A stretch of 64,000 bases of DNA from Candidatus Woesearchaeota archaeon (GTDB taxonomy: Archaea > Nanobdellota > Nanobdellia > Pacearchaeales > GW2011-AR1), in NCBI GenBank assembly GCA_964545065.1, contig CAZJEO010000002.1, forward strand, positions 132,879-196,878, in the 5' to 3' direction. Position numbers and translations under genes: made by a program. Shown one piece after another: positions 2,615 to 18,829 of the stretch. The notes under the pieces are model-generated. The model made no database searches, was not told the origin of the DNA, and saw only the letters and a program-made list of their open reading frames with translations. Every line of letters starts with the position of its first letter. The first letter of the stretch is position 1.

Positions 2615-2742
2615 CTAAACTTAAATTATAAGGGCCTTAAAAAGTTTTTGTTTGGAAAAATCTAGGGTCTGCGAAGACCTACTTACCCCCATATAGATGA
2701 TAAAAAATTTCTTAGATTCAATATAGATAAAGAATTGACAGT

Positions 2743-3798
2743 TTATATTTCCAAAAGATACTTTAATGTCTCATCTTTTAATTTTTCTTCAGAAGAATCA
2801 TTAATTATAAAATTTCTGCCTTCTCTGGAAAGTTTATCTCTCTCTATTCTGGGCAATAAGAAAAATTTATCTATTTCTTTTTGTATTTTTTCTAGATTAA
2901 ATGGAACTTTTTTAACAGACTTTGTAGTTAAGGTCTCAAAAGTATCTAAATCAAAAAGTATTACCGGAGTTCCACATGCTAAAGATTCTCGTGGTGGAAG
3001 AGGGTGGCTATTTCTTTTACTAAAAAATAAACTTAAATCTGATAAGTTGTAATAATCTGGAAGTTTCTTATTGAGAATGTGCGGAATGTGAGTTACATTT
3101 TTAAATTTTTTATTTTTAAAGTTCTCGTCTTTTAATTCCCCGATTAAGACGAATTTTTTATCTTGATTTTTTTGAATTAACTCAAGTAAGTAATCAGAGC
3201 CTTGCTCAAATTCAATTCTACCAACATAGATAAGAATTTTATCCTTATCATTAAATCCGAACTTGCTTCTTAACTGTTTCTTATTCTTTGGCCTGAATAT
3301 ATGGACATTTATGGGAACTAGTAAACAAAATATCTTTTTTTTACTCAGGAAGAGGAACTTCCTCATAATTTCTCTTACCTTTTTACCACTACTTAAGAAA
3401 CGATCTGTAAAAAATTGAGAAAATAGAAAAAAACAATTTCTTAAATTAATTTTGGGGTTTCCATGAAGATAATTTATTGATTTGGTTTTTGTGAAGAATG
3501 TTGCTAAAAATAATGCCAATGCAATCTCTGCCATGCCAGTCAAGCTAACAACTGCTCCTATTTTATTATCCTTGCAGAATTTCCTTAATCTAAATGGAAC
3601 GATAAATTTTTTATCGGGAAATTCTGTTATTTTCGTTCTTTTTAATTTATACTTTTTCCTATCAAATTTGCTTGCGCAAACAATGAATAATTCTACATCT
3701 TTTGGAAAAATTTTTTCATAATAACTCATAATCACCTGTCTTGCATGATCATAATGGCCAAGGAAGAAACAAATTCTTTTTATCATTATGGGGTACAT
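2743..3798 (-). CDS. Glycosyltransferase, GT-B fold (GT1/GT4-like)
   Basis: C-terminal PPRESLACGTPVILFD resembles the EX7E/nucleotide-sugar-binding region of GT4 enzymes. Lies in the glycan locus. Confidence 0.7.
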   Translation of the reverse strand: MYPIMIKRICFFLGHYDHARQVIMSYYEKIFPKDVELFIVCASKFDRKKYKLKRTKITEFPDKKFIVPFRLRKFCKDNKIGAVVSLTGMAEIALALFLATFFTKTKSINYLHGNPKINLRNCFFLFSQFFTDRFLSSGKKVREIMRKFLFLSKKKIFCLLVPINVHIFRPKNKKQLRSKFGFNDKDKILIYVGRIEFEQGSDYLLELIQKNQDKKFVLIGELKDENFKNKKFKNVTHIPHILNKKLPDYYNLSDLSLFFSKRNSHPLPPRESLACGTPVILFDLDTFETLTTKSVKKVPFNLEKIQKEIDKFFLLPRIERDKLSREGRNFIINDSSEEKLKDETLKYLLEI

Positions 3799-5071: not shown

Positions 5072-6397
5072 ATGGAACTAACTGACATGAAAAAATCAAT
5101 TCCAAAAATAGTAATAATTGGAGCAGGGCTAACTGGTTTGAGCTTAGCATATTTCCTTGAGGAAGAAAATAAAAAAGATTACATCTTGCTCGAAGGTTCT
5201 TCTGAAATCGGGGGATTATGTAAAAGTATTAGGAAAAATGGATTTGTATTTGATTTAGCTCCCCACTTGTTGCACCTAAAAAATCCAGAAATTATAGAAT
5301 TAGTGAAAAAGCTATTAGGGGATGAACTAACACTAAATACCCGAAAAGCGGGAATAGTTTTTGGTGGTAAAATTATTCCGTACCCTTTTCAGTATAATCT
5401 TTACCATTTAGATGAAGAGATAAAAAAAGAATGCTTGGATGGTGCTATTGAAGCAAATAAAAAATTTAGTGAAGAAAAAGAATCTGATAATTTTGGGGAG
5501 TGGATAAAAATGACTTTTGGAGAGGGTATTGCAAAATACTTCATGACTCCATATAATAAAAAATATTATTGTGTTGATCCTAATGAACTAACCATGGATT
5601 TTTTTAAAAAATATATCCCTAAGACACGTTTTGAAGAAATAAGGCAAGGAGCAATATCTGACATGTCTGATTCTAAGGCTGGATACTTTCATGAGTTTTA
5701 TTACATAAAAAGCGGGGGAATTGATTATCTGCCAAAAGCTATGGCTAAGGGAGTTCAAAACATTAGACTAGATGAAAAGGTGATTCGGATTGATTTGGAT
5801 AAGAAAATAGTATTCACAGAAAACTCAGAGTATAATTATACTAATTTGGTTTCCACGATTCCTATTAATAAACTTATTCAATTGATGGGTAGAGTTCCGG
5901 ATGAAATTAAAATTGCACGTGAAAAATTAAGATGCAATAGCATAAGTCTTGTCTTTTTGGGAATTAATCGGCCCAAGATCTCTGACCATCATTGGTTATA
6001 CTTGCCTCAAGAAGATATTTTGCCTTTTAGAATAACTTTTCACAAAAATCTTTCAGAAAATATGGTCCCTACAAATATGAGTTCAATTTGTGCAGAGTAT
6101 TCTTATCTTGGTGATAAAAAATTTACAGATGATGAAATAATTGAAAAAACAATTGATGACTTAATTAAAATTGGTGTTATTAAAAACAAAGAAGAAATAA
6201 TTTTTAAAGACTCTATTGATTTGCCTTATGCTTATCCTATCTTTGATTTAAATAGAAAAGAAAATTTAAAATTGATAAAAGATTATTTAGATAAACATGA
6301 GATAATATCTATTGGACGATTTGGAACATGGGAGTATTCTCCTATGGAAGACGGAATTATCCAGAGCAAGCATGCTGTCTCTAGATTAATCTCATAA
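5072..6397 (+). CDS. FAD/NAD(P)-dependent oxidoreductase, UDP-galactopyranose-mutase-like
   Basis: N-terminal dinucleotide fold IVIIGAGLTGLSLAYFLEE. The C-terminal GRFGTWEYSPMEDGI resembles the UGM/amine-oxidase family C-terminus. Confidence 0.6.
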   Translation: MELTDMKKSIPKIVIIGAGLTGLSLAYFLEEENKKDYILLEGSSEIGGLCKSIRKNGFVFDLAPHLLHLKNPEIIELVKKLLGDELTLNTRKAGIVFGGKIIPYPFQYNLYHLDEEIKKECLDGAIEANKKFSEEKESDNFGEWIKMTFGEGIAKYFMTPYNKKYYCVDPNELTMDFFKKYIPKTRFEEIRQGAISDMSDSKAGYFHEFYYIKSGGIDYLPKAMAKGVQNIRLDEKVIRIDLDKKIVFTENSEYNYTNLVSTIPINKLIQLMGRVPDEIKIAREKLRCNSISLVFLGINRPKISDHHWLYLPQEDILPFRITFHKNLSENMVPTNMSSICAEYSYLGDKKFTDDEIIEKTIDDLIKIGVIKNKEEIIFKDSIDLPYAYPIFDLNRKENLKLIKDYLDKHEIISIGRFGTWEYSPMEDGIIQSKHAVSRLIS

Positions 6398-6486
6398 ATG
6401 TGCAGATGTTTGTTAATTAAGTTCTGTTTTCATGAGAAACTCAAGAGTATAACTAAATTTATATAGTCCATATCAACTCAATTATT

Positions 6487-7293
6487 ATGATATATTTGAC
6501 AGGGGATGTCCATGTAAAAATCCCTCCAGGGAATTGGGAGCAAAAAAACATTGAGTCAGAAGTTGCCGCTTCAGAAAAATACCTCAAAATATTAGCAAAA
6601 TATAATATTTCTTGCACACTTTTCATTAATGGTATCTGCTTTAATAAAAACAAAGAAGGGATCAAGCAATTATTGGAATATGATGTGGAACTTGGGGGGC
6701 ATACTTATAATAATTTCGGTGGGATGGATATAGTTAGAAGTTATATCACTAGAAAACTTTTTGGTAATATCTATGGACCTTCTTTTTACCAAAAGAGGGA
6801 CATTAGAAAAACAAAAGAGGCCTTTGAAAAGTTTGGATTAAAGATGACCTCTTGGAGAACGCATGCATTTGGTTCGAATAATGAAACATTTAGATTATTG
6901 AAAAAGGAGGGGGTGATGTACGTCTCTGATTTGATTGGAGATCAAGGATGTTTTGCAGATAAAAATGGGCTTATCCATTTACCCCTTAATATTTCTATAG
7001 ACCAGAACACAATTGCTTATGGTATTCTTAAACCTGAAAATAGGGACCCTTTTTCTTCAAGTTGCACGAAGGGAAGAATAAAACCAGAAGAATGGTTTGA
7101 AATTATAAAAAAAAGAATAGATGAAAATGAGAGAGAAAAAATTCCGAGCATAATTTTAATTCATCCAGCAACAATGGCTTTTTTGGATGATTTTCAATTA
7201 TTCGAAAAAGTTGCTAAATTTCTATCAAAATATGAATCTAAGAAAGTTTCTGAATTTGAATACAATGAAAAAATCAAATCTTATAAAGAATGA
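6487..7293 (+). CDS. Putative polysaccharide deacetylase-like hydrolase
   Basis: Weak CE4-like pattern (LTGDVH, GGHTYNN, ILIHPATM) in a glycan locus. Its first 9 and last 30 codons recur as a deletion derivative at 9685-9804. Confidence 0.4.
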   Translation: MIYLTGDVHVKIPPGNWEQKNIESEVAASEKYLKILAKYNISCTLFINGICFNKNKEGIKQLLEYDVELGGHTYNNFGGMDIVRSYITRKLFGNIYGPSFYQKRDIRKTKEAFEKFGLKMTSWRTHAFGSNNETFRLLKKEGVMYVSDLIGDQGCFADKNGLIHLPLNISIDQNTIAYGILKPENRDPFSSSCTKGRIKPEEWFEIIKKRIDENEREKIPSIILIHPATMAFLDDFQLFEKVAKFLSKYESKKVSEFEYNEKIKSYKE

Positions 7294-8655
7294 GAATATT
7301 TCAGTAAAAACCATGGATGATAAACAAAAGAGAAGAATCTTATTTATCTATCCTGCAAATGACGGTGAATCATTGGGGATAGAGTATCTTTCTGGGAGTC
7401 TTAGAAAAAGGGGGCATAAAACAGATTTAATCCTCTTTAGAGAAATTGAGGGGTTTGAAAGGGAATTAAAACAAAATATAAAAAGTTTTGACCCGGATTT
7501 TGTGTGCCTTTCTGTTGTTACAGACAATTATTCTTGGGCATGCAAGATATCAAGAATTATTAAAAAAGTAAAGGAAATTCCAATAGTTTTTGGAGGAATT
7601 CAAGTAACCTCCTGTCCTGAAGAAGTTATAAGTAATGATTTTGTAGATTACGCAGTCCTTGGAGAAGGGGAAGAAGCGATAGTCGAATTGGTTGAAAATC
7701 CTAAAAATCCAAACATAAAAAATGTCTGGTTTAAGAAAAATGGTAAAATAATTAAAAACAACTTAAGATCCTTAGTTCAAAATCTAGATTTATTGTCTTT
7801 CCCAGATAAAGAACTTTTTTATAAAAAAACTCCTCACCTTAAGAATAATTATTGGTGCATAACTAGTAGGGGATGTCCTTTTGGGTGTAGTTATTGCTTT
7901 AATCACTATCTCAGAAAATTGTATGAGGGACAGAGATGGTTAAGGAGAAGGAGCGTTGAGAATGTTATTGAAGAGTTAAAGATAATGAAAGAGAAAGGGG
8001 GCTGTAAAAATGTGCTTTTTTTTGATGATTGTTTTACCTCTGATAAAGAATGGTTAAGAAAATTCATTAAAGAATATAAAAAAGAAATCAATCTTCCTTT
8101 TGAATCTATCTCTATTCCGATTTTTATTGATAAAGAAGTTGCTTCTCTTTTAAAAGAAGGAGGGTGTATAAAAGTCCAAATGGGTGTTCAGACGCCTATT
8201 GAAAGAATAAGAAAAGAAATATGCAAGAGAGGAGATACTAATGAAGATATTGAAATAGCAGTTAATGAACTTAAAAAACAAAAGATAGCGGTCTCATTAG
8301 ATCACATATTTTCGTTGCCTTCTGAAAAAATAGAAGACTATGATGAGGGGTTAAAATTCTATATAAAACTTAAACCAACAATATTCAAAATCTTTAAGTT
8401 GGGTTATTACCCCAATACAGAAATAATGAAGATAGGTAAAGAATATAAAACAATAGATGAAGAAACTGAAAAGAAAATCATTGGGGGGGATTTTTCGTCG
8501 GGAATTATGCTGCATCGCAAAGAGGGAGAAAAGAAATTTGAAGAAATTTTTAAATTTATCCAATGGATTCCAATTTTTCCGAGAGGGTTTAGTAGATTTC
8601 TTCTTAGAACAAGGTTATATCGCAAAATTCCAAAAAATAAGTATATTACTAAAAT
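7204..8655 (+). repeat. Left copy of a 1452 nt apparently identical direct repeat (partner 9715-11166)
   Basis: Constant offset of 2511 nt. The forward ORF and three independent reverse/alternate-frame ORFs translate identically in both copies. The first mismatch I found is at 8656/11167. Confidence 0.85.
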
Positions 8656-8788
8656 CCCTATTGTAATTCCAGATTTTTATACAATAAAATTAATGAAACG
8701 TTTTTTTAGGGTAAGGAAGAATAGGAGGATAGTAAAAATTAAGTTGTATAAATCTAAATTGAAAAACATCTTCTTGGGAAATAATTAA
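7313..8788 (+). CDS. B12-binding-domain radical SAM protein, copy A
   Basis: N-terminal cobalamin-binding-like domain (RRILFIYPANDGESLGIEYLSG), then CPFGCSYC (CxxxCxxC). ATG 7313 is preferred as the start. In-frame ATG 7265 and the track start 7187 both overlap the upstream gene. Confidence 0.8.
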   Translation: MDDKQKRRILFIYPANDGESLGIEYLSGSLRKRGHKTDLILFREIEGFERELKQNIKSFDPDFVCLSVVTDNYSWACKISRIIKKVKEIPIVFGGIQVTSCPEEVISNDFVDYAVLGEGEEAIVELVENPKNPNIKNVWFKKNGKIIKNNLRSLVQNLDLLSFPDKELFYKKTPHLKNNYWCITSRGCPFGCSYCFNHYLRKLYEGQRWLRRRSVENVIEELKIMKEKGGCKNVLFFDDCFTSDKEWLRKFIKEYKKEINLPFESISIPIFIDKEVASLLKEGGCIKVQMGVQTPIERIRKEICKRGDTNEDIEIAVNELKKQKIAVSLDHIFSLPSEKIEDYDEGLKFYIKLKPTIFKIFKLGYYPNTEIMKIGKEYKTIDEETEKKIIGGDFSSGIMLHRKEGEKKFEEIFKFIQWIPIFPRGFSRFLLRTRLYRKIPKNKYITKIPIVIPDFYTIKLMKRFFRVRKNRRIVKIKLYKSKLKNIFLGNN

Positions 8789-8791
8789 AAA

Positions 8792-9280
8792 ATGAGAAAA
8801 CTAAACTTCGGATGTGGAAAGGATGTAAGGAAAGGATGGGATAATTGTGATATCCAAAAAGAAGCCCCCATTAGTTTTAATTTTAATAAATTCCCTTATC
8901 CTTTAAAAAAGAACTATTATGATTACCTTCGGATAAATTCAGTTTTAGATTATGTAGAAAAACCAGAAGAAGTTCTCAATGAGTTATGGAAACATTCTGC
9001 TAAAGAGGGTATAATCGAAATTTGGTGTGGTTATTGGAATTGTATAGGGTCTTGGAATCTATTAATCTCCAAAGGAGGATTTTCCCGTGAATGTTTTCTA
9101 TTATTTATTAAAAGTGATTATATAATTAATCAAAAAAGAAAATTTAAGATAGAACTTTTAGAATTAATCCCAACCACTGTTGGAAAATGGATTTACCCGA
9201 AATGTTTAAGGGAAAAACTGTCTCTTTTTTTCGGAGGAATTATTTCGCAGGTTCATGTTAAACTGAAAGTTATTAAATAA
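8792..9280 (+). CDS. Small class I SAM-dependent methyltransferase-like protein
   Basis: LNFGCGKD...GWDNCD motif I and a VLDYVEKPEEVLNEL region. Same family as the 2102-2614 gene. Confidence 0.6.
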   Translation: MRKLNFGCGKDVRKGWDNCDIQKEAPISFNFNKFPYPLKKNYYDYLRINSVLDYVEKPEEVLNELWKHSAKEGIIEIWCGYWNCIGSWNLLISKGGFSRECFLLFIKSDYIINQKRKFKIELLELIPTTVGKWIYPKCLREKLSLFFGGIISQVHVKLKVIK

Positions 9281-9286
9281 TTTAAT

Positions 9287-9435
9287 TTAATTCTTTTTCT
9301 TACAAAAACAAGTATAATTAATTGCCCCAAGCAGTCCAAAATAAGAGGGGAAGCTCATTGTAAATTTTTGTTTCTTAAGATATTTTTTAAGATCCTTTAC
9401 ATTTTTTAAATCTTTTTCCATATCTCTCCCAATAG
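9287..9435 (-). pseudogene. Remnant: last ~48 codons of a paralog of the 11394-12155 methyltransferase
   Basis: The minus strand reads ...DLKNVKDLKKYLKKQKFTMSFPSYFGLLGAINYTCFCKKKN*. The intact gene ends ...NLENLEDLKKFLKKQKFTMRFPSYFGLFGAINYTCFCKKKN*. Confidence 0.8.
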
Positions 9436-9486
9436 ATATTAAATTCCTTTTCGATTAATTTTTAATCCTGACTTTGATTAGAAAAA

Positions 9487-9603
9487 TCAACCTAGGGCGT
9501 AAATAAAAGGTGATAATGCACTACTCTGTCCAAAGACTATTAATGCACCAACTATTAACAGCATAATCATTATTGGGTTGTATCAACAGAACTTTTGCCA
9601 CCC
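9487..9603 (-). pseudogene. Remnant of a DUF5989/SxtK-like small membrane protein gene
   Basis: The minus strand reads WWQKFC*YNPIMIMLLIVGALIVFGQSSALSPFIYALG*. The intact copy at 12378-12551 has ...WWLLPTIIMLLIVGALIIFGQSSALSPFIYALG*. The remnant carries an in-frame stop. Confidence 0.75.
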
Positions 9604-9684
9604 TATATCTCTAGGGAAAACCCTATTTAAGTTATACTAAACGGCAAAAGATAGTTTTTTATATGTGAGTTTATGTTAAAATAA

Positions 9685-9804
9685 ATGATATGTATAACGG
9701 GCGAGGTGCATGATGAAAAAGTTGCTAAATTTCTATCAAAATATGAATCTAAGAAAGTTTCTGAATTTGAATACAATGAAAAAATCAAATCTTATAAAGA
9801 ATGA
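9685..9804 (+). pseudogene. Internal-deletion derivative of the 6487-7293 deacetylase-like gene (39-codon in-frame mini-ORF)
   Basis: MICITGEVH matches MIYLTGDVH at 6487. It is fused in frame to EKVAKFLSKYESKKVSEFEYNEKIKSYKE*, which is identical to the last 30 codons of the full gene. Confidence 0.8.
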
Positions 9805-11166
9805 GAATATTTCAGTAAAAACCATGGATGATAAACAAAAGAGAAGAATCTTATTTATCTATCCTGCAAATGACGGTGAATCATTGGGGATAGAGTATCT
9901 TTCTGGGAGTCTTAGAAAAAGGGGGCATAAAACAGATTTAATCCTCTTTAGAGAAATTGAGGGGTTTGAAAGGGAATTAAAACAAAATATAAAAAGTTTT
10001 GACCCGGATTTTGTGTGCCTTTCTGTTGTTACAGACAATTATTCTTGGGCATGCAAGATATCAAGAATTATTAAAAAAGTAAAGGAAATTCCAATAGTTT
10101 TTGGAGGAATTCAAGTAACCTCCTGTCCTGAAGAAGTTATAAGTAATGATTTTGTAGATTACGCAGTCCTTGGAGAAGGGGAAGAAGCGATAGTCGAATT
10201 GGTTGAAAATCCTAAAAATCCAAACATAAAAAATGTCTGGTTTAAGAAAAATGGTAAAATAATTAAAAACAACTTAAGATCCTTAGTTCAAAATCTAGAT
10301 TTATTGTCTTTCCCAGATAAAGAACTTTTTTATAAAAAAACTCCTCACCTTAAGAATAATTATTGGTGCATAACTAGTAGGGGATGTCCTTTTGGGTGTA
10401 GTTATTGCTTTAATCACTATCTCAGAAAATTGTATGAGGGACAGAGATGGTTAAGGAGAAGGAGCGTTGAGAATGTTATTGAAGAGTTAAAGATAATGAA
10501 AGAGAAAGGGGGCTGTAAAAATGTGCTTTTTTTTGATGATTGTTTTACCTCTGATAAAGAATGGTTAAGAAAATTCATTAAAGAATATAAAAAAGAAATC
10601 AATCTTCCTTTTGAATCTATCTCTATTCCGATTTTTATTGATAAAGAAGTTGCTTCTCTTTTAAAAGAAGGAGGGTGTATAAAAGTCCAAATGGGTGTTC
10701 AGACGCCTATTGAAAGAATAAGAAAAGAAATATGCAAGAGAGGAGATACTAATGAAGATATTGAAATAGCAGTTAATGAACTTAAAAAACAAAAGATAGC
10801 GGTCTCATTAGATCACATATTTTCGTTGCCTTCTGAAAAAATAGAAGACTATGATGAGGGGTTAAAATTCTATATAAAACTTAAACCAACAATATTCAAA
10901 ATCTTTAAGTTGGGTTATTACCCCAATACAGAAATAATGAAGATAGGTAAAGAATATAAAACAATAGATGAAGAAACTGAAAAGAAAATCATTGGGGGGG
11001 ATTTTTCGTCGGGAATTATGCTGCATCGCAAAGAGGGAGAAAAGAAATTTGAAGAAATTTTTAAATTTATCCAATGGATTCCAATTTTTCCGAGAGGGTT
11101 TAGTAGATTTCTTCTTAGAACAAGGTTATATCGCAAAATTCCAAAAAATAAGTATATTACTAAAAT
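9715..11166 (+). repeat. Right copy of the 1452 nt identical direct repeat
   Basis: See the partner entry at 7204-8655. Confidence 0.85.
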
Positions 11167-11299
11167 TCCTATTTTAATTCCCAATTTTTATACAATAAAA
11201 TTAATGAGATGGTTTTTTGGGGTAAGAAAGACTAGAATGATAATAAAAATTAAATTATGCCAATCTAAATTGAAAAACATCTTCTTGAGAAATGGTTAA
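9824..11299 (+). CDS. B12-binding-domain radical SAM protein, copy B
   Basis: Translation is identical to copy A up to ...KYITKIPI, then diverges over the last ~45 aa. Offset from copy A is exactly 2511 nt. Confidence 0.8.
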   Translation: MDDKQKRRILFIYPANDGESLGIEYLSGSLRKRGHKTDLILFREIEGFERELKQNIKSFDPDFVCLSVVTDNYSWACKISRIIKKVKEIPIVFGGIQVTSCPEEVISNDFVDYAVLGEGEEAIVELVENPKNPNIKNVWFKKNGKIIKNNLRSLVQNLDLLSFPDKELFYKKTPHLKNNYWCITSRGCPFGCSYCFNHYLRKLYEGQRWLRRRSVENVIEELKIMKEKGGCKNVLFFDDCFTSDKEWLRKFIKEYKKEINLPFESISIPIFIDKEVASLLKEGGCIKVQMGVQTPIERIRKEICKRGDTNEDIEIAVNELKKQKIAVSLDHIFSLPSEKIEDYDEGLKFYIKLKPTIFKIFKLGYYPNTEIMKIGKEYKTIDEETEKKIIGGDFSSGIMLHRKEGEKKFEEIFKFIQWIPIFPRGFSRFLLRTRLYRKIPKNKYITKIPILIPNFYTIKLMRWFFGVRKTRMIIKIKLCQSKLKNIFLRNG

Positions 11300-11302
11300 A
11301 AA

Positions 11303-11428
11303 ATGAGGAAACTAAACTTCGGATGTGGAAAGGATATAATGGAAGGATGGGATAATTGTGGTATCCAAAAAGAAGCCCCCATTAGTTTTAATTTTAATTC
11401 TTTTTCTTACAAAAACAGGTATAATTGA
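11303..11428 (+). pseudogene. Truncated copy of the 8792-9280 methyltransferase (first 32 codons only)
   Basis: MRKLNFGCGKDIMEGWDNCGIQKEAPISFNFN, then the frame runs into the 3' end of the opposite-strand gene. This equals a 404 nt deletion relative to copy A. Confidence 0.8.
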
Positions 11429-12155
11429 TTGCTCCAAACAGTCCAAAATAAGAAGGGAATCTCATTGTAAATTTTTGTTTTTTAAGGAATTTTTTAAGGT
11501 CCTCTAAATTTTCTAGATTTCTTTCTACATCTTTTCCAAGTTTCTCTTCGCGATCAATAAGGAAATATTTAGAGATTAACCTCTTTAAATCATTTAATAA
11601 AAACATATGGGGATGACAAACATTAAATATACCCCCATTTACTTTTTTTGTAAATCCATATAATTTTGAAAGTGCCAAAAAAGAAGATTGATGAAAGTGA
11701 CCTTCAAAATAAAGTATTCCGTCATCTTTCAACACCCTTTTTGCTTCTTGCAAAATTTTTTCTGGATTCTTACAATGGTCTAACACATTTGCTAAAATTA
11801 TCACATCAAACATTTCGTCTTTATAGGGTAGGTTTTCTCCTGTTCCTTTTAAATAATTTGTTTCCTCGTAGTTTATTATTTTCCCAAATTTTTTAATATA
11901 AAAATCTGCTAAAGGGTCTATAGAATGCTTTTCTTTTACAAGAAGATGGTTGATTATATCATCAACAGCACAACCAACCTGCAAAACGCAAATATCCTTC
12001 TCCTTACCATACTTTAAAAGTTCATTGGTGAGATATTTTGATTTTTTTACATAATATTTTTGATGGTCTAGAATAAAAGATTCCTCTATTGAATCCCAAA
12101 GTCCTTTTTCTGCATTTTGTGCTTTATCAAATCGTTCTGTAGTTACTGTTTGCAT
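11394..12155 (-). CDS. Class I SAM-dependent methyltransferase
   Basis: Motif I VLQVGCAVDD, FDVIILANVLDH and LKDDGILYF motifs. Confidence 0.75.
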   Translation of the reverse strand: MQTVTTERFDKAQNAEKGLWDSIEESFILDHQKYYVKKSKYLTNELLKYGKEKDICVLQVGCAVDDIINHLLVKEKHSIDPLADFYIKKFGKIINYEETNYLKGTGENLPYKDEMFDVIILANVLDHCKNPEKILQEAKRVLKDDGILYFEGHFHQSSFLALSKLYGFTKKVNGGIFNVCHPHMFLLNDLKRLISKYFLIDREEKLGKDVERNLENLEDLKKFLKKQKFTMRFPSYFGLFGAINYTCFCKKKN

Positions 12156-12202
12156 CTTATATCTTAAACGCTCTCTTTTTTATTCTTTGCGATGGTTTAC
12201 CG

Positions 12203-12325
12203 TTATCTTAAATCTGTCTGAAATAAGTGTGGGAGTTCCACATTTTTTGGGAATATTCTTTCATAATAATCTAGAATCACTTGTCTTGAAAAATCAGTTC
12301 TGGTAGTAAAAAAGCATATCTTCAT
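12203..12325 (-). pseudogene. Fragment resembling the N-terminus of the 2743-3798 glycosyltransferase
   Basis: MKICFFTTRTDFSRQVILDYYERIFPKNVELPHLFQTDLR* compared with IKRICFFLGHYDHARQVIMSYYEKIFPKDVELFIV in the GT. Not in the ORF track (40 codons). Confidence 0.6.
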
Positions 12326-12377
12326 TTTGATAGGGAAAAACTATTTTTATATAGTTTTGTGTACTAAAATTATATAA

Positions 12378-12551
12378 TTAACCTAAAGCATAAATAAAAG
12401 GAGATAATGCACTGCTTTGCCCAAAAATAATCAAAGCACCCACAATCAAAAGCATAATTATTGTTGGAAGCAACCACCATTTTTTTCTTATTTTTAAAAA
12501 GTCCCAGAGTTCTCTTATTAAACCTCTGTTTTTAAGATTGTTTTCTTGCAT
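12378..12551 (-). CDS. DUF5989/SxtK-like small membrane protein (57 aa, below the ORF-track cutoff)
   Basis: My translation is MQENNLKNRGLIRELWDFLKIRKKWWLLPTIIMLLIVGALIIFGQSSALSPFIYALG*. I recall this family pattern as accompanying carbamoyltransferase genes. Confidence 0.7.
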   Translation of the reverse strand: MQENNLKNRGLIRELWDFLKIRKKWWLLPTIIMLLIVGALIIFGQSSALSPFIYALG

Positions 12552-12575
12552 GATACAATTACTAACTATAAAATG

Positions 12576-13820
12576 TTAATAAATGTTTTGTTTTCCTTCT
12601 TGAAATTTTTCGTATATTAATTGACCTGCTACATAATGCCCATTTTTATTCAAATGGAGGTCGGTAACAAAGTATAATAGAGTATTATTGTCAGAAACAT
12701 ATTCTTTAAATTTGGGAAGGAGATTTATCAATGCAATTTCATTACTCTCTGCGAAATTTGTTAATAAATCATATGGCTTAGACCAATTCAAAAAATTACC
12801 TTCTTTGTCTTTTATCTTGCTTTCATAAACTTCTTCTCTTCTAGGGATAATAATAATTATCAATTTAGCGTTGTTTTCTTGGGATATGTTTTTAATTTTA
12901 AGAAGATAGTTTAGAACTTCTTCTACTTCTTTTTTAGTTTCAGAACTATAATTATTCGCATAAATCCCCCCGTCTCGTTTTCCTTTATAAAAGTTCATTA
13001 GACTATTTCTAAAACTGTTTTTAAAAAGAATATATGTGTGAAGACGGAAAGATAAAAATAGATTTATCTTGTATAATTCTTCTCTAATAAAATCTTTTTT
13101 AATACTATACGTTCTTAATCTATTTTTTTCATCAACGTAATATTTTGTTGAAACTATTCTTTCCAATTCTCCATTTTCATCAAAATAATTAAAATTGTAT
13201 TTGTGGTCTTCAAAATCATTTACTATAGAAAACCCAATTAATACAATATCTGGATTCAATAATATTCCTTCCTTTTTAAGATAAAGATATTGGGTGTTGG
13301 GACTATCTCCTGATTTATACCCTGCATTTATTATCTCATATTTATTAATCCTTTCATTTATTTTTTTCTCAAAAACTTTATGATACGTTTCATTTAATTC
13401 AACACCAAATCCATGAGTATGAGAATCTCCAAGAACTAATATTCTTGTAATATTTTGCGATTTATTAATACTAAATTCCTTGTCCCGATAACCTAAGGAA
13501 TTATGTTTGATGGATACATTAAACTCTCCAAATTCATTGAAATGGTTAGTTTCAATAGAAGGTTTTATTTGCCAAGGAAGATAATCACTTTCATTATAAA
13601 AAGTTGAAGCCGCATTTGTAAATGTATATTTCAATATTGGTTGTGGAGCAAAGATTCTTAGAAAAATTTCAAAAAATAGAAAAAATAGAAAAATTACAAT
13701 AAATAATAACAATAAATTTTTTTTCAATTCTTTAGTTTTCTTTTCAGATGATTTTAATTTTTTTTGTTTTTTTACAGGGACAATAACCTTTCTGAACCTA
13801 ATCTCTTGCATTTTCTTCAC
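12576..13820 (-). CDS. SGNH/GDSL-type hydrolase or acyltransferase with an N-terminal membrane anchor
   Basis: Block I RILVLGDSHTHGFG, an N-terminal TM segment (LLLLFIVIFLFFLFFEIFL) and a late DLHLNKNGH block (DxxH-like). Confidence 0.65.
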   Translation of the reverse strand: MKKMQEIRFRKVIVPVKKQKKLKSSEKKTKELKKNLLLLFIVIFLFFLFFEIFLRIFAPQPILKYTFTNAASTFYNESDYLPWQIKPSIETNHFNEFGEFNVSIKHNSLGYRDKEFSINKSQNITRILVLGDSHTHGFGVELNETYHKVFEKKINERINKYEIINAGYKSGDSPNTQYLYLKKEGILLNPDIVLIGFSIVNDFEDHKYNFNYFDENGELERIVSTKYYVDEKNRLRTYSIKKDFIREELYKINLFLSFRLHTYILFKNSFRNSLMNFYKGKRDGGIYANNYSSETKKEVEEVLNYLLKIKNISQENNAKLIIIIIPRREEVYESKIKDKEGNFLNWSKPYDLLTNFAESNEIALINLLPKFKEYVSDNNTLLYFVTDLHLNKNGHYVAGQLIYEKFQEGKQNIY

Positions 13821-15556
13821 TACTCCAAATATCTTTTTTATTGTCCATTCGTTTTATTAAAAAATCTCCCATAACCAAATAATCTATTTCAGTTCCCATC
13901 ATACATTTATATGCGTCATGAGGAGTACACACTATTGGTTCTCCTCTAATGTTAAAAGAGGTATTTATTAAAATTGGAATTCCTGAAAGTTTTCCAAATT
14001 TTTTAATTAAATCATAATATAAATGGTTTTGGTTTCTTCTTATTGATTGTAATCTGCCTGAGCCGTCAACATGAGTCACAGAAGGTATTTTTTTATGCCA
14101 CTCTTTCCTAATTGGATAAACCATTAACATAAAATCTGTTGGCAACGGGATTGGCTCGTCGCATTCAAAATATTTTAAAGCATCATCTTCACACACAACA
14201 GGAGCAAAAGGTCTAAACTTTTCTCGATGTTTAACTTTTAAGTTCAAAATCTCTTGCATTTTTGGATTTGTTGCATTTGATAATATGCTCCTGCTTCCTA
14301 AAGCCCGTGGTCCCCATTCCATTTTTCCCTGAAACCAACCAACCACATTATTTTCATAGATTAATTTTGATGTTTTTTCAAGAAGATCTTTTTCATTTTC
14401 GAATTCTGAATATTTGATTTTATGCCTATCGAGAAAATTTCTTATTTGTTTTGTTGAATATTTTGGGCCAAGATAAGCATCTTGCATTTGATAACTTCTC
14501 TCATTACCTAAAATTGTATTATAGACATATAATGCAACACCCAAACTTGTTCCACCATCTCCAGGGTCTGGCTGAGCCCAGAAATTTTTAAAGGGGGTAT
14601 TTCTCAAGATTTTCCCGTTAGCTACACTATTTAACCCACAGCCACCAGCAAGAACAAGATTCTTGCATTTTGTTTCTTTATAAATATGGTTTAGTATTTT
14701 AAATAAAACTCCTTCATAAATCATTTGAAGAGCGGCTGCAATATCTTTGTGCCTTTGAGTTAGTTCTGACTCTGGTTTTCTTATTGGACCTGTGAGTAAT
14801 TTACATAATTTTTTAGAAGGCATTTTGTTCTTATGAGTATAATTAAAATAATCCATATTTAATCTAAAGCTTCCATCATTTTTTATGTCAAGAACTTTTT
14901 TCAATTTTTCATAATAAGGGTTTGTTTTTTTATTCATATTTCCATAAGGAGATAAACCCATAACTTTATATTCAGAATTATTAACACTAAAACCTAGATA
15001 AGCAGTAATTGTTGAGTATAATAAACCTAATGAACTCGGAAATTGTATCTCTTTGAGAAGATTAATTTTATTTTTTTTACCAATTCCATATGTTGTGGTT
15101 GTCCACTCCCCGACACCATCAATAGTTACTATTGCTGCTTTTTCAAACGGACTAATTAAAAAAGAACTGGCATGAGCTAAATGGTGTTCAATGAACAAAA
15201 CATCTTTTTTGTACTTCAATTTTTTTCGAATGATTTTAAGTATTCTCAATTTTTCATTGAACCAGTTTGGAAGATTGGAAAGGAATGTCTTATAACCCTT
15301 GGGGGAACATTTCCAGATTTTGATGCAAAACTCTTTCAAATTTCAATAAAGGTTTTTCATAAAATCCTATGTAATCTATCTCTTTTATCGTAATGCCTTG
15401 GGTTCTTAGACACCATTTTATGGCATTTTCAGGAAAAGAGATGTCATGTTTATTCCTGGTAAATCTTTCTTCTTGGGCTGCCGCTACAATTTTCCCGTCT
15501 TTTAAAAGTGCCGCAGATGAATCATGATAGAAACAACTTATTCCCAAGATATACAT
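13798..15556 (-). pseudogene. Carbamoyltransferase (NodU/CmcH/SxtI family) split by a +1 frameshift in a C5 run
   Basis: The N-terminal ORF (15290-15556) starts MYILGISCFYHDSSAALLKDGKIVAAAQEERFTR. The C-terminal ORF (13798-15339) continues KGYKTFLSNLPNWFNEKL...HHLAHASSF. Removing one G from the plus-strand G5 at 15301-15305 restores the frame. Confidence 0.8.
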
Positions 15557-15557
15557 T

Positions 15558-15803
15558 TTAAAACTGCCTATAATACTCCTCCAAAGGTCTTTTAGTTAAG
15601 TTTAATTCCGACCAATAACTATCTTTTCTTCTCATTTTTAAATCTAAAAAATGTTTTCCAAAAATTTTAGCAATAATTGAAGTTCCTCCAACACCTAAAA
15701 AATAAACAATACTCAATAATACTGAATTTATAATTACTGCAATATGCTCGCCAAAATCCTTCGAGCCGTTTTCAAAACCTATAAAAAAATCTTTAATTTT
15801 CAT
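15558..15803 (-). CDS. Small membrane protein resembling the C-terminal half of SxtJ-family proteins
   Basis: MKIKDFF...IIAKIFGKHFLDLKMRRKDSYWSELNLTKRPLEEYYRQF. ATGA overlap with the upstream ORF, and 1 nt before the carbamoyltransferase start. Confidence 0.5.
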   Translation of the reverse strand: MKIKDFFIGFENGSKDFGEHIAVIINSVLLSIVYFLGVGGTSIIAKIFGKHFLDLKMRRKDSYWSELNLTKRPLEEYYRQF

Positions 15804-16003
15804 TTTAATATTTTTTTCAGTACGAATCCAATTAAAAGTAATGTTAAAAGTATTGCAGCCACGTGTAAAAAACTCCATGTTGGAGGAATTTTATTCAGAT
15901 ATCTTAAAATAAAGTAAAGAAGAAAAGTTGAGATAATATACATAAATGAAAAACCTAAGATCTCACCGATTCTTTTTTCAATTAGAAAATTTTTATTACG
16001 CAT
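15800..16003 (-). CDS. Small two-TM membrane protein (possible N-terminal half of an SxtJ-like protein)
   Basis: Hydrophobic 67 aa ORF, translationally coupled to the next gene by an ATGA overlap. Confidence 0.4.
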   Translation of the reverse strand: MRNKNFLIEKRIGEILGFSFMYIISTFLLYFILRYLNKIPPTWSFLHVAAILLTLLLIGFVLKKILK

Positions 16004-16266
16004 GGAATAAATAAATTCTTATTATTTATAAGCTTTTTTCATATTGTCCTCCTGTCTAAAGCATAAAAAATTTGTTAAGACAATAAACTATAAAAACCCT
16101 TTTTCATAAATCTGAATAATATATACAGAATGTGTGTATTCAAAAGACCCAAATTGTTGGGGCAAAAACCTTTTGGTTCTAATGTTGGAATATCTTTAAA
16201 ATATTTGCAAATATTGAAAAAATAATTATTTTATAATTTCTTTTATTAAATTAAAATCCTCCTTTT

Positions 16267-17802: not shown

Positions 17803-17881
17803 AATTAGGGCATTAGAAATTGGTTTTTATTCTTTGTGTAACAAATGTAGTTAAATTTATAAGAACCATAGATTAAGTCTG

Positions 17882-18829
17882 ATGATGAGATTTTCATTAG
17901 TTATCCCTGTTGCTCTTTATAGAGATGCGGAAATACTGAAAAGCTTAGAGAAATTGGATTTTCCTAAAGAAGAATATGAAATTATTGTTAAACCAGGGCC
18001 AAATCCTTCTGAAAATAGAAACAAAGGTGTTGAAGAGGCTACAGGAGATATTGTGGTTTTCTTGGATGATGATGCTGTTGCTCATGAGGCCATTTTAAGA
18101 AATGCTGATAAATTTTTTAATGAACATCCTGAGATTGATATTGTTGGTGGGCCGCAGTTAACACCAGAGGATGATAAGGGATTTGCAAAAATTTCTGGTT
18201 ATGCTCTTTCTTCTAAGTTTGGTGGCTGGAGTACTTCTAATAGATATGGAAAGAAAGAATTGAACTTAGACGCAGATGATACTTATCTTACTACAGCAAT
18301 CATGTTTTGTAAGAAGAGTGTTTTTGATAAGATAAGGTTTGATGAAACATTGTTTCCAGGGGAAGATCCTAGGTTTATCATGGATGCAAAAAAAGAAGGT
18401 ATGAGAGTTGCGTATCACTCTGGTTTGATTGTTTATCATAGAAGACGTCCCACTATTAAGGCATTTGTAAAGCAGATTTTTAACTATGCAAAGGTTGTTC
18501 CTTCACGCCAATCTCCTCAAGAGGTATTAAAAAAGCCTTTTGTTCTGATTCCGAGTTTTTTTCTGTTATATCTTGTAGTTATGCTTGGAGGAATAATAAT
18601 AAATCCCGAAGTAGCAAAATACTTTTTTGGAATTTTTAGCAAAGATTTTAGCCTTGCTTCTATATTGTTTGTTCCTTCGCTTTTGTATCTTGCATTTGCA
18701 TTGGTTTTTTCATTTTATGAATCATTGAAAAATAGAGATTTAAGAGGAATTGTCTTTTTGCCGTTTATATTTTTGCTACTACATCTAACTTATGGCGCTG
18801 GAGTTATTTATGGATATGTTAAGGATTAG
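17882..18829 (+). CDS. Glycosyltransferase family 2 with C-terminal TM segments
   Basis: The FSLVIPV start, a DxD region VVFLDDDAV and C-terminal hydrophobic helices. Confidence 0.8.
   Translation: MMRFSLVIPVALYRDAEILKSLEKLDFPKEEYEIIVKPGPNPSENRNKGVEEATGDIVVFLDDDAVAHEAILRNADKFFNEHPEIDIVGGPQLTPEDDKGFAKISGYALSSKFGGWSTSNRYGKKELNLDADDTYLTTAIMFCKKSVFDKIRFDETLFPGEDPRFIMDAKKEGMRVAYHSGLIVYHRRRPTIKAFVKQIFNYAKVVPSRQSPQEVLKKPFVLIPSFFLLYLVVMLGGIIINPEVAKYFFGIFSKDFSLASILFVPSLLYLAFALVFSFYESLKNRDLRGIVFLPFIFLLLHLTYGAGVIYGYVKD

What the first reader, a model, noticed from the sequence alone, without database searches (positions are those of the whole stretch)
6487..12551. Tandem segmental duplication of a five-gene glycan module, followed by reciprocal gene decay
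Two direct copies of an ancestral unit can be reconstructed. The unit is deacetylase-like, B12-rSAM, small methyltransferase, opposite-strand methyltransferase, opposite-strand DUF5989. Copy A (6487 to about 9603) keeps the deacetylase, rSAM and small MT intact. It retains only the last ~48 codons of the opposite-strand MT (9287-9435) and a stop-interrupted DUF5989 remnant (9487-9603). Copy B (9685-12551) keeps the rSAM, the opposite-strand MT and DUF5989 intact. Its deacetylase is reduced to a 39-codon in-frame fusion of the first 9 and last 30 codons (9685-9804), and its small MT to 32 codons (11303-11428). A glycosyltransferase N-terminal fragment lies at 12203-12325. The net result is one working copy of every gene except the B12-rSAM, which is kept twice and differs only in the last ~45 residues. 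That looks like retention of a diversifying paralog in a recombination-prone locus.
Basis: seen in the sequence. Interest (0 to 1): 0.7.

Follow-up and report, generated by a model that had tools for sequence, protein, structure and literature searches.

The report
Tandem duplicated glycan genes, partly homogenised
A small archaeon's surface-sugar gene cluster contains a real tandem duplication: the spare gene copies have been cut down to stubs, and the one gene kept twice has recently been copied over itself, which is ordinary recombination-driven turnover rather than a new kind of system.

Summary
Window 7204-8887 repeats at 9715-11398 (offset 2511 nt, 98.5%). All five claimed gene stubs are there (deacetylase, small methyltransferase, methyltransferase, DUF5989, glycosyltransferase N-terminus).

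- **Uneven divergence.** The repeat is 0/1452 mismatches in the core (7204-8655), then 16%, 5%, 15% and 21% in the following segments. This points to an old split plus recent gene conversion of the B12-radical-SAM gene, not one event followed by steady decay.
- **No diversifying selection.** The two radical-SAM copies differ only in the last 44 codons, with dN/dS 0.36.
- **Stubs were functional.** The methyltransferase and DUF5989 stubs diverged under purifying selection (dN/dS 0.21 and 0.02), so they were working genes for most of that time and were truncated recently.
- **Related contigs lack the duplication.** A related genome (housekeeping dS about 0.4-0.8) has the deacetylase and methyltransferase genes abutting, with no radical-SAM or small methyltransferase gene. 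A more distant contig has deacetylase, small methyltransferase and methyltransferase without the radical-SAM gene. The radical-SAM gene therefore looks like a one-gene insertion that was later duplicated.
- **Mosaic locus.** The cluster is a recombination mosaic in a DPANN-type archaeal chromosome.

An assembly artefact is unlikely but cannot be tested without reads. This is ordinary locus dynamics of modest interest.

The parts
6487..7293 (+). Intact polysaccharide-deacetylase-like gene (unit A), 268 aa. A TATA-like TTTATATA lies at 6458-6465, 29 nt from its start to the ATG.
   Evidence: Pfam PF01522, 36.6 bits against a cut-off of 23.1. 64% aa identity to the deacetylase of relative L048 and 65% to L052. 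Promoter-like box seen.
7204..8655 (+). Repeat core, copy 1: 1452 nt, 100% identical to 9715-11166. It covers the last 30 deacetylase codons and about 92% of the radical-SAM gene.
   Evidence: Zero mismatches in the position-by-position comparison. blastn self-alignment.
7265..8788 (+). B12-binding radical-SAM gene, copy A. The likely start is ATG 7265 or 7301; the longest ORF starts at 7187. Compared with L048 and L052 it is a one-gene insertion between the deacetylase and sMT genes.
   Evidence: Pfam B12-binding plus Radical_SAM. CxxxCxxC motif conserved in alignment A1. Deacetylase homology to L048 and L052 ends at about aa 257, window about 7258-7260.
8656..8887 (+). Diverged right part of the repeat: the radical-SAM tail (8656-8785, 16.2% divergent) and the sMT 5' end (8786-8887, 4.9% divergent).
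   Evidence: 26 mismatches in 232 nt. Tail dS 0.38, dN/dS 0.36. The two segments differ in divergence, p 0.007.
8792..9280 (+). Intact small class-I SAM methyltransferase (sMT), 162 aa.
   Evidence: The protein's own Pfam hit is only E 0.045. 12 of 14 family members hit Methyltransf_11, best E 6.5e-10. Full-length homologues at up to 61% identity.
9287..9435 (-). Remnant of the methyltransferase gene (unit A): last 48 codons plus the stop.
   Evidence: tblastn aa 206-253, 77%, E 2e-22. 86% nt identity. dS 0.49, dN/dS 0.21.
9487..9576 (-). Remnant of DUF5989 (unit A): last 29 codons plus the stop. An in-frame stop lies three codons upstream.
   Evidence: tblastn aa 29-57, 90% aa identity. 79% nt identity. 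pS 0.72, dN/dS 0.02. With its 3' flank it is 79% identical to L048 over 116 nt.
9577..9684 (.). Junction spacer between the units, with no detectable homology. It contains a TATA-like TTTTATAT at 9657-9664, 28 nt from its start to the remnant ATG.
   Evidence: Local alignments do not exceed shuffled controls. Sequence read.
9685..9804 (+). Deacetylase remnant (unit B): a 39-codon in-frame fusion of the first 9 codons and the last 30.
   Evidence: ORF list. tblastn aa 240-268 at 100%. N-terminal motif MI.[IL]TG[DE]VH shared with unit A and L048.
9715..11166 (+). Repeat core, copy 2 (identical to 7204-8655).
9776..11299 (+). B12-binding radical-SAM gene, copy B, intact. It differs from copy A at 12 of its last 44 residues.
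11303..11428 (+). sMT remnant (unit B). 32 homologous codons (11303-11398) are followed by unrelated read-through. The missing 393 nt correspond to 8888-9280 and were lost between TTTAAT microhomologies.
   Evidence: tblastn. Junction sequences.
11394..12155 (-). Intact class-I SAM methyltransferase (unit B), 253 aa.
   Evidence: Pfam Methyltransf_11, E 6e-15. 82-83% aa identity to the L048 orthologue P0123.
12203..12325 (-). N-terminal fragment of a group-1 glycosyltransferase.
   Evidence: 63% identity over 30 aa to the N-terminus of ORF 2743-3798(-), E 2e-10, which is a Glycos_transf_1 protein. 83% nt identity to the 5' end of the L048 GT1 gene.
12378..12551 (-). Intact DUF5989 gene (unit B), 57 aa.
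   Evidence: Pfam PF19451, 77 bits.

Best explanation
This is a genuine tandem segmental duplication inside a hypervariable surface-glycan biosynthesis island on the chromosome of a DPANN-type (Pacearchaeota-like) archaeon.

The conserved backbone of the locus is deacetylase, then small methyltransferase, then a convergent methyltransferase. In this lineage a single B12-binding radical-SAM gene sits between the deacetylase and the small methyltransferase. The whole unit (deacetylase, rSAM, sMT, then opposite-strand MT and DUF5989, about 4 kb) then came to exist twice in tandem.

The two units diverged to synonymous distances of about 0.4-0.5 or more while their genes were still under purifying selection. 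That could happen in two ways:
- both units were long-lived functional duplicates; or
- the second unit arrived as an already diverged allele through recombination. I think this slightly more likely, because the locus swaps alleles freely.

Later, four deletions removed the redundancy. They took out:
- the deacetylase_B interior, in frame;
- 393 nt of sMT_B, between 6-nt TTTAAT microhomologies;
- the MT_A 5' part plus the spacer;
- the DUF5989_A 5' part.

Most recently, gene conversion (or an equivalent recombination) between the two radical-SAM copies made at least 1452 nt identical. The tract runs from the left edge of homology to 133 nt before the stop codon.

Shown: the repeat, the remnants, the divergence strata, the selection signatures, and the states in related contigs. 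Inferred: the order of events, the conversion mechanism, the allele-import option, and the idea that the deacetylase_B stub survives because it keeps the promoter and start that drive rSAM_B.
For: **Repeat and remnants.**

**Divergence strata.**
- 0/1452 mismatches in the core against 21/130 in the tail, Fisher p 3e-24.
- The probability that all 26 differences fall in the last 232 of 1684 aligned nt is 4e-23.
- At the tail's synonymous divergence, dozens of synonymous differences would be expected in the core; none are seen.

**Purifying-selection signature in the remnants.** MT 3' end dN/dS 0.21 and DUF5989 3' end 0.02. These are similar to orthologue values of 0.05-0.22 against the relative.

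**Microhomology** at the sMT_B deletion junction.

**Related contigs.**
- L048/L050 is collinear with the window, with housekeeping dS 0.43-0.76. Its deacetylase and MT genes are convergent, 8 nt apart, with no rSAM or sMT gene.
- L052 has deacetylase, sMT and convergent MT, with the same 6-nt spacer between the stops and no rSAM.
- The nearest rSAM homologues (68-71% aa) are single genes in unrelated contexts, one next to an rve integrase.

**Mosaicism between the two genomes within this locus.** dS ranges from 0.08 to 1.9. Gene fragments (GT1, flippase, a 170-aa methyltransferase) are scattered in both genomes.

**Three-way comparison.** Site patterns for the MT 3' end (A+B together 18, A+L048 9, B+L048 12) and the DUF5989 3' end (8, 9, 6) are close to star-like.

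**Independent assembly.** A separate assembly of run SRR8799001 (Logan contig L001) is 100% identical to window 11369-21076. It stops exactly 30 nt inside repeat copy B. That is what a k=31 graph does at a true repeat boundary.

**Promoter-like boxes.** A TATA-like box lies 28-29 nt upstream of the ATG of deacetylase_A, of the deacetylase_B stub, and of the L048 deacetylase.
Against: - No reads were available, so linkage across the 1452-nt exact repeat and the true copy number are unverified.
- The perfect identity of the core could be partly an assembler consensus, if bubble popping merged sparse differences.
- The selection estimates rest on short segments (29-48 codons).
- The low dN/dS of the DUF5989 stub could instead mean that it is still translated from an internal ATG as a 25-27-aa membrane peptide.
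- Allele import and in-situ duplication cannot be told apart with the available relatives. A-B distances (dS 0.38-0.49) are about the same as, or slightly below, the distance to the nearest relative genome.
- No genome with a single-copy deacetylase-rSAM-sMT arrangement was found.
Confidence: 0.72

Rival explanations
1. One in-situ tandem duplication of the five-gene unit, immediate redundancy, neutral reciprocal decay of one copy of each gene, and retention of the B12-rSAM pair because the paralogs are diversifying.
For: The collinear order of intact genes and remnants and the complementary pattern of loss fit this model. MT 3' site patterns slightly favour grouping A with B over either with L048: 18 against 9 and 12. 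A-B dS of 0.38-0.49 is not larger than the distance to the relative genome, 0.43-0.76. An in-situ origin is therefore possible.
Against: Divergence is strongly non-uniform, from 0% to 21%. The remnants show purifying rather than neutral divergence, with dN/dS 0.21 and 0.02. The rSAM copies are identical over 1452 nt, and their tails have dN/dS 0.36, which is the opposite of diversification. The intact DUF5989_B is further from both the A stub and L048 (dS 2.4 and 1.1-1.6) than the A stub is from L048 (0.68). A simple duplicate pair would not show that.
Confidence: 0.15
2. Assembly artefact. Two co-occurring strains or alleles, or a collapsed repeat traversed twice, were chained through the shared 1452-nt sequence, so that no single genome carries both units.
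For: The source is a metagenome-assembled contig (198,270 nt). An exact 1.45-kb repeat cannot be spanned by short reads. The two units look like two diverged functional alleles, as co-occurring strains would supply. The Logan assembly breaks at the repeat edge.
Against: The middle segment (8656-9714) is flanked by the core on both sides, so any molecule that carries it has the core twice. The only alternative is an excised circle, which itself implies the tandem state. The deletions that define the remnants join non-homologous points or 6-nt microhomologies, far shorter than any assembler k-mer, so an assembler cannot have made them. Unit B still carries stubs of MT and DUF5989 upstream of its own intact MT and DUF5989.
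Confidence: 0.07
3. A recombinational on/off or dosage switch. The perfect 1452-nt direct repeats are maintained because RadA-mediated deletion or amplification between them toggles the small methyltransferase and the rSAM tail variant. That would change the surface glycan in a subpopulation, as in phase variation.
For: Perfect direct repeats of this length are intrinsically recombinogenic. Deletion between them would remove exactly sMT, tail A and the stubs, leaving a tidy deacetylase-rSAM(tail B)-MT locus (geometry). The island encodes surface-glycan functions.
Against: There is no evidence of population heterogeneity, no site-specific recombinase in the region, and no conservation of the arrangement in any other contig. 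Instability is a by-product of any tandem repeat.
Confidence: 0.05

Closest known systems
Mosaic polysaccharide loci of bacteria (O-antigen rfb/wb clusters, pneumococcal cps loci), which carry gene remnants at recombination junctions (my own knowledge, not tested here).
   Same: A surface-glycan cluster with a flippase, GT1 and GT2 glycosyltransferases, sugar-nucleotide enzymes and modifying enzymes. Allele-level mosaicism between relatives (dS 0.08-1.9 within one locus). Truncated gene fragments mark past rearrangements.
   Different: The host is an archaeon of the DPANN group. No insertion sequence or transposase flanks the rearranged segment. The event here is a tandem duplication with complementary trimming, not a cassette replacement.
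Concerted evolution of duplicated genes by gene conversion, for example tufA/tufB in enterobacteria or rRNA operons (my own knowledge).
   Same: A long block of perfect identity with an abrupt boundary, embedded in older and more diverged homology.
   Different: Here the block covers only part of the gene, leaving 44 diverged C-terminal codons. The copies are adjacent rather than dispersed. The direction and mechanism of conversion are not observed.
Reciprocal gene loss or duplication-degeneration after segmental duplication.
   Same: Each gene in the duplicated unit survives intact in exactly one copy, and the losses alternate between the copies.
   Different: The lost copies were removed by a few discrete deletions, not by gradual mutation. 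Their surviving stubs show purifying-selection divergence, so redundancy was not resolved soon after the split.
Cobalamin-dependent (class B) radical-SAM methyltransferases such as CysS, TsrM and GenK, and the related enzyme AprD4.
   Same: An N-terminal B12-binding domain plus a radical-SAM core with CxxxCxxC. Weak sequence matches to the CysS, TsrM and AprD4 structures, E 3e-8 to 3e-5. The gene sits among sugar-modifying genes.
   Different: It scores far below every curated NCBIfam subfamily cut-off; the best is TIGR04072 at 129 bits against a cut-off of 360. Substrate and chemistry are unknown. It has a basic C-terminal tail of about 45 residues, and that tail is the only part differing between the copies.
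Carbamoyltransferase / DUF5989 / SxtJ-type small-protein neighbourhoods.
   Same: In relative L048, DUF5989 lies directly after an intact 585-aa carbamoyltransferase.
   Different: In the window an SGNH/AlgX-like gene separates them. The carbamoyltransferase is frameshifted, and DUF5989 is present as one intact copy plus one stub.

Membership tests
Tandem segmental duplication | Two adjacent direct copies with the same internal order of homologous segments, at better than chance similarity. | tested here: met
   Three collinear direct matches with E values of 0, 2e-46 and 3e-17. Protein-level remnants lie in the expected order and on the expected strands.
Tandem segmental duplication | Both copies are present on one DNA molecule, not joined by the assembler. 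| not testable with these tools
   No reads were available. Indirect support only: the Logan contig L001 breaks exactly k-1 nt into the repeat, and the deletion junctions could not be made by an assembler.
Gene conversion / concerted evolution | A block of identity significantly longer than expected from the flanking divergence, with sharp boundaries. | tested here: met
   0/1452 against 26/232 mismatches. P(0 differences in the core at the flanking rate) is 1e-75, and Fisher p is 3e-24.
Gene conversion / concerted evolution | The identity is real in the genome, not a consensus produced by the assembler. | not testable with these tools
   This needs phased reads across the core.
Neutral reciprocal decay of redundant duplicates | Complementary loss: each gene is intact in only one copy. 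| tested here: met
   The deacetylase and sMT genes are intact only in unit A. MT and DUF5989 are intact only in unit B.
Neutral reciprocal decay of redundant duplicates | The lost copies show relaxed constraint (dN/dS approaching 1) since the duplication. | tested here: not met
   dN/dS is 0.21 for the MT stub and 0.02 for the DUF5989 stub. Synonymous excess is significant at p 7e-4 and 1e-9. Only the 32-codon sMT stub is near 0.8, and that rests on 5 differences.
Diversifying (positively selected) paralog pair | An excess of nonsynonymous change between the retained copies. | tested here: not met
   The core is identical. The tail has dN/dS 0.36, with synonymous excess at p 0.03. Compared with outgroup tails, both copies carry similar numbers of derived residues.
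Cobalamin-dependent (class B) radical-SAM enzyme | A B12-binding domain followed by a radical-SAM domain with a CxxxCxxC cluster motif. | tested here: met
   Pfam PF02310 (E 5.5e-20) and PF04055 (E 4e-23). Motif C-PFG-C-SY-C, with C225 and C232 invariant and C229 nearly invariant in A1.
A characterised class-B rSAM subfamily (TIGR04072 ladderane-lipid type, HpnJ, BchE, PhpK and others) | A score above the curated NCBIfam cut-off. | tested here: not met
   The best hit is TIGR04072 at 129 bits against a cut-off of 360. All others are also below cut-off.
IS- or integrase-mediated composite element | A transposase or integrase gene, or terminal inverted repeats, bounding the duplicated segment. 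| tested here: not met
   No such ORF or Pfam hit lies in 6487-12551. The inverted repeats found are short and imperfect. An rve integrase sits next to a 68% rSAM homologue, but in an unrelated contig.
Class-I SAM methyltransferase (for the 162-aa 'small MT') | A significant match to a class-I methyltransferase domain. | tested here: inconclusive
   The protein's own hit is E 0.045, below cut-off. 12 of 14 full-length homologues hit Methyltransf_11, best E 6.5e-10. The N-terminal L-N-F-G-C-G motif is conserved.

The most novel reading that the evidence does not exclude
The perfect 1.45-kb direct repeats are kept identical by selection and act as a recombinational toggle or amplifier. Popping out or re-amplifying the 2.5-kb unit would switch the small methyltransferase and the radical-SAM tail variant. 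That would give a DPANN archaeon a phase-variable surface glycan for host attachment or virus evasion.
Probability: 0.06. Interest if true: 0.55.

Novelty: new member of a known kind. Interest (0 to 1): 0.3.

Why it matters
This is a clean, datable example of how a glycan island in a reduced DPANN archaeal genome changes. The steps are gain of a single modifying gene, duplication of a multi-gene unit, removal of redundancy by a few deletions, and homogenisation by gene conversion. It implies active homologous recombination in such genomes.

It also carries a practical warning. A 1.45-kb perfect repeat inside a metagenome-assembled contig needs read-level validation. Automatic annotation will also report two 'paralogs' and several spurious small ORFs here.

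It does not reveal a new mechanism or a new system.

Tried and rejected
- **Exact-protein look-ups.** Both rSAM copies, the deacetylase, sMT (full and contig-edge-truncated) and the 44-aa ORF in the middle segment found no indexed contig. The contiguity of 8656-9714 in a second assembly could therefore not be checked.
- **Junction search.** A scan of JGI metagenomes for a 41-nt sequence specific to the deacetylase_B fusion gave no hit.
- **Species-representative genomes.** The scan found only rSAM relatives at 56% identity or less. These lie in multi-rSAM/methyltransferase glycan islands without the five-gene unit.
- **Closest rSAM homologues (68-71%).** They sit in unrelated contexts and gave no unduplicated state.
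- **Flank homology.** I looked for homology between the regions upstream of the two deacetylase starts, between the MT-DUF5989 spacers, and upstream of the DUF5989 stub. None exceeded shuffled controls.
- **Promoter scan.** The sigma-70 promoter scan is uninformative for an archaeon: 31 sites found against 30.6 expected.
- **Misaligned comparison.** My first three-way MT comparison was misaligned by one codon. I redid it correctly.
- **Abandoned argument.** I first thought that A-B divergence far exceeded the genome-wide distance to the relative. That rested on two unusually similar genes, the carbamoyltransferase and the NTP-transferase, at dS about 0.1. Housekeeping genes give dS 0.43-0.76, so I dropped the argument.
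- **Literature.** Searches for DUF5989 and for DPANN glycan islands returned nothing directly relevant.

Full report

Yes. A blastn self-comparison of 5500-13500 gives three collinear direct matches:

| Unit A | Unit B | Length / identity | E value |
|---|---|---|---|
| 7204-8887 | 9715-11398 | 1684 nt, 98.5%, offset 2511 | 0 |
| 9281-9432 | 11387-11539 | 86% | 2e-46 |
| 9485-9576 | 12376-12467 | 79% | 3e-17 |

I translated the intact genes and searched them against the window.
- The last 29-30 deacetylase codons at 9715-9804. They are fused in frame to 9 N-terminal codons starting at 9685.
- The first 32 codons of the small methyltransferase (sMT) at 11303-11398.
- The last 48 codons of the methyltransferase (MT) at 9290-9433(-).
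- The last 29 codons of DUF5989 at 9490-9576(-).
- A 40-codon ORF at 12203-12325(-). Its first 30 residues are 63% identical (E 2e-10) to the N-terminus of the ORF at 2743-3798(-).

Pfam confirms the labels: Polysacc_deac_1, B12-binding plus Radical_SAM, Methyltransf_11, DUF5989, and Glycos_transf_1 for the 351-aa ORF. The 162-aa 'small methyltransferase' has no significant hit of its own, but 12 of 14 full-length relatives hit Methyltransf_11.

Two small corrections apply.
- The DUF5989 stub is secure only up to 9576. An in-frame stop follows three codons upstream, and similarity out to 9603 is not significant.
- The 27-nt deacetylase 5' stub is convincing through its position, its frame and the conserved motif MI.[IL]TG[DE]VH. 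That motif is shared with the intact copy and with a relative's deacetylase. Its DNA score alone is not convincing.

**2. Where are we?**

The window encodes Cdc6/Orc1 and both subunits of the archaeal D-family DNA polymerase. It also carries SecD, a 5S rRNA and four tRNAs, at about 31% G+C. Homologues of the radical-SAM and methyltransferase proteins come from Pacearchaeota and Nanoarchaeota metagenome bins. This is the chromosome of a DPANN-type archaeon.

Both radical-SAM copies are recorded on one 198,270-nt contig held by NCBI and ENA.

The surrounding genes make 2-21 kb a surface-glycan biosynthesis and modification island. They include a flippase, GT1 and GT2 glycosyltransferases, an epimerase, an NTP-transferase, a carbamoyltransferase, an SGNH/AlgX-like protein, an FAD oxidoreductase and a SPASM radical-SAM enzyme.

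**3. The divergence between the two units is not uniform.**

A position-by-position comparison gives the following:

| Segment | Differences | Divergence |
|---|---|---|
| Core 7204-8655 | 0 / 1452 | 0% |
| rSAM tail 8656-8785 | 21 / 130 | 16.2% |
| 8786-8887 | 5 / 102 | 4.9% |
| MT 3' end | 21 / 144 | 14.6% |
| DUF5989 3' end | 18 / 87 | 20.7% |

- Core against tail gives Fisher p 3e-24.
- The chance that all 26 differences fall in the last 232 of 1684 aligned nt is 4e-23.
- Selection on the protein cannot explain this. At the tail's synonymous divergence (pS 0.30), dozens of synonymous differences would be expected in the core, and there are none.

The core has therefore been homogenised recently, by gene conversion or an equivalent recombination. 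That event lies on top of a much older split. The left end of the identical block coincides with the edge of homology (the deacetylase_B deletion junction), as expected for a conversion tract.

**4. The stubs were working genes for most of their history.**

Nei-Gojobori estimates between each stub and its intact partner:

| Segment | dS | dN/dS | Synonymous excess, Fisher p |
|---|---|---|---|
| MT 3' end | 0.49 | 0.21 | 7e-4 |
| DUF5989 3' end | pS 0.72 (saturated) | 0.02 | 1e-9 |
| rSAM tail | 0.38 | 0.36 | 0.03 |

- These ratios match those of orthologous genes between this genome and its relative, 0.05-0.22.
- Had one copy been free to decay since the duplication, values near 0.6 would be expected.
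- Both units were therefore under purifying selection for most of the time since they diverged. The truncations are late.
- The radical-SAM tails show no sign of diversifying selection. Against outgroup tails, both copies carry similar numbers of derived residues.

**5. What related genomes show.**

*The relative L048/L050.* The methyltransferase has an 83% identical homologue on a 42.6-kb scaffold (L048/L050). The same sequence occurs in NCBI assembly GCA_004196275.1 under accession SDBV01. That accession is a marine-sediment metagenome from near Loki's Castle (PMC6401483).
- The scaffold is collinear with the window over the glycan flank and over housekeeping genes, at 85-92% nt identity with housekeeping dS 0.43-0.76.
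- Its deacetylase and methyltransferase genes are convergent and only 8 nt apart. It has no B12-rSAM gene, no small methyltransferase gene and no duplication.

*The more distant contig L052.* This JGI contig carries GT1(-), deacetylase (65%), sMT (61%) and a convergent MT (57%). It has the same 6-nt spacer between the two stop codons as the window, and again no B12-rSAM.

*Boundary of the insertion.* Deacetylase homology to both relatives ends at residue about 257, window about 7258-7260. That is just before the probable radical-SAM start at 7265. The backbone is therefore deacetylase, sMT, convergent MT. The radical-SAM gene is a one-gene insertion into it. Its nearest homologues (68-71%) are single genes in unrelated neighbourhoods, one beside an rve integrase.

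*Mosaicism.* The locus as a whole is mosaic between the two related genomes:

| Gene | dS, window vs L048 |
|---|---|
| Carbamoyltransferase, NTP-transferase | 0.08-0.10 |
| Epimerase, GT2, flippase, MT_B | 0.44-0.51 |
| DUF5989_B, deacetylase, FAD oxidoreductase | 1.5-1.9 |

The relative also carries stray fragments of a GT1 gene, of the flippase 3' end, and of a 170-aa methyltransferase.

**6. In-situ duplication or imported allele?**

- Three-way site patterns for the MT 3' end are A+B 18, A+L048 9 and B+L048 12. For the DUF5989 3' end they are 8, 9 and 6. Both are close to star-like, with only a slight A+B signal for MT.
- A-B synonymous distances (0.38-0.49) are about the same as, or a little below, the genome-wide distance to the relative.
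- The DUF5989 stub of unit A, with its 3' flank, resembles the relative (79% over 116 nt; dS 0.68). The intact DUF5989_B is further from both.
- These data fit two readings. One is an old in-situ duplication in which both units stayed functional for a long time. The other is recombination that stacked an already diverged allele next to the resident one.
- I lean slightly to the second reading, because the locus demonstrably exchanges alleles. I cannot decide between them.

**7. How the redundancy was removed.**

Four deletions account for the stubs.
- The sMT_B deletion removes exactly the equivalent of 8888-9280 (393 nt). It lies between TTTAAT microhomologies.
- The deacetylase_B deletion is in frame. 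It keeps the ATG, nine codons and a TATA-like box about 28 nt upstream. Similar boxes lie upstream of deacetylase_A and of the relative's deacetylase.
- It also keeps the 97 nt upstream of ATG 7301, the later of the two candidate radical-SAM starts, which are identical in both copies.
- I infer, without direct evidence, that this stub survives because it supplies transcription and translation initiation for rSAM_B.

**8. Could it be an assembly artefact?**

I cannot test this without reads. It is unlikely, for these reasons:
- The middle segment (8656-9714) is bounded by the core on both sides, so any molecule carrying it has the core twice.
- The deletion junctions join non-homologous sequence or 6-nt microhomology, which no assembler would create.
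- An independent assembly of run SRR8799001 (L001) is 100% identical to 11369-21076. It stops exactly 30 nt inside repeat copy B, the behaviour of a k=31 graph at a real repeat boundary.

Three things remain open: the exact copy number, population heterogeneity, and whether the '100%' identity of the core hides sparse differences removed by bubble popping.

**9. Function.**

The duplicated enzyme has a B12-binding domain and a radical-SAM core with CxxxCxxC. It matches the CysS, TsrM and AprD4 structures only weakly. It falls far below every curated subfamily threshold.

In this gene context the most likely role is a cobalamin-dependent radical modification of a sugar or glycan intermediate, probably C-methylation. 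That is an inference.

The part that differs between the copies is a basic C-terminal tail of about 44 residues. Whether the difference matters is unknown.

**10. Verdict.**

The evolutionary reading needs three changes:
- homogenisation by gene conversion instead of diversification;
- late truncation of long-functional or imported copies instead of immediate reciprocal decay;
- the radical-SAM gene as an accessory insertion into a conserved deacetylase-sMT-MT backbone.

This is a well-resolved example of ordinary glycan-island dynamics in a DPANN archaeon. It is a new instance of known processes, and its interest is modest.

Noticed in passing
window 13798-15560 (-), frameshift near 15305: The carbamoyltransferase is split into an 88-aa and a 473-aa ORF by a 1-nt insertion in a run of C. 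The relative L048 has an intact 585-aa gene that is 96% identical. The Logan assembly of SRR8799001 carries the same frameshift. It is therefore in the reads: a likely pseudogene, or a slippage-prone site.
   Followed up: partly
L048 7609-8049, 9523-9813 and 9808-9983 (matching window 2742-3182, 2362-2654 and 16260-16437): The related genome carries three displaced gene fragments between its DUF5989 and MT genes. They are the C-terminal 146 codons of a GT1 gene (89% to the window's intact GT1), part of a 170-aa methyltransferase (87%), and the 3' end of the flippase gene (96%). Fragment shuffling is therefore a property of this island in both genomes.
   Followed up: partly
window 22847-31942: About 9.1 kb present in the window is absent from the collinear relative L050, between the UDP-glucose-dehydrogenase-like genes and secD. 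It encodes an 808-aa FG-GAP-repeat protein and a 1609-aa laminin-G/sialidase-like protein, probably surface proteins. This is a second variable island.
   Followed up: no
window 35959-43445: The ABC/MacB transporter block (39881-43320) is inverted relative to L050. In the window the rearranged stretch is bounded by two tRNA-Leu genes (35962-36047 and 43319-43404). Both match the single tRNA region of L050, at 80% and 91%. The segment 36.1-39.8 kb has no counterpart in the fetched part of L050.
   Followed up: no
window 13798-15339, 19723-20583 and 20672-21466: The carbamoyltransferase, the NTP-transferase and a 264-aa hypothetical gene are much closer to the relative (dS 0.08-0.15) than housekeeping genes are (dS 0.43-0.76). 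This suggests recent exchange of these segments between the two lineages.
   Followed up: partly
window 51245-58164, with the cumulative GC-skew minimum near 40-44 kb: Genes for Cdc6/Orc1, the PolD small subunit and the PolD large subunit lie in a row. The cumulative GC skew turns around near 42 kb, close to the 5S rRNA gene (43168-43282). A replication origin may lie in this part of the window.
   Followed up: no
window 9490-9570 (-): The DUF5989 stub keeps two in-frame ATG codons, the whole predicted membrane helix and the conserved C-terminus. It has almost no amino-acid change despite saturated synonymous change. It could still be translated as a 25-27-aa peptide rather than being a dead remnant.
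   Followed up: no
L002 10001-12388; L046: The closest homologues of the duplicated radical-SAM gene (68-71%) occur as lone genes. One sits beside an rve-family integrase; another lies among short unannotated ORFs. This hints that the gene travels as a mobile single-gene cargo among DPANN genomes.
   Followed up: partly
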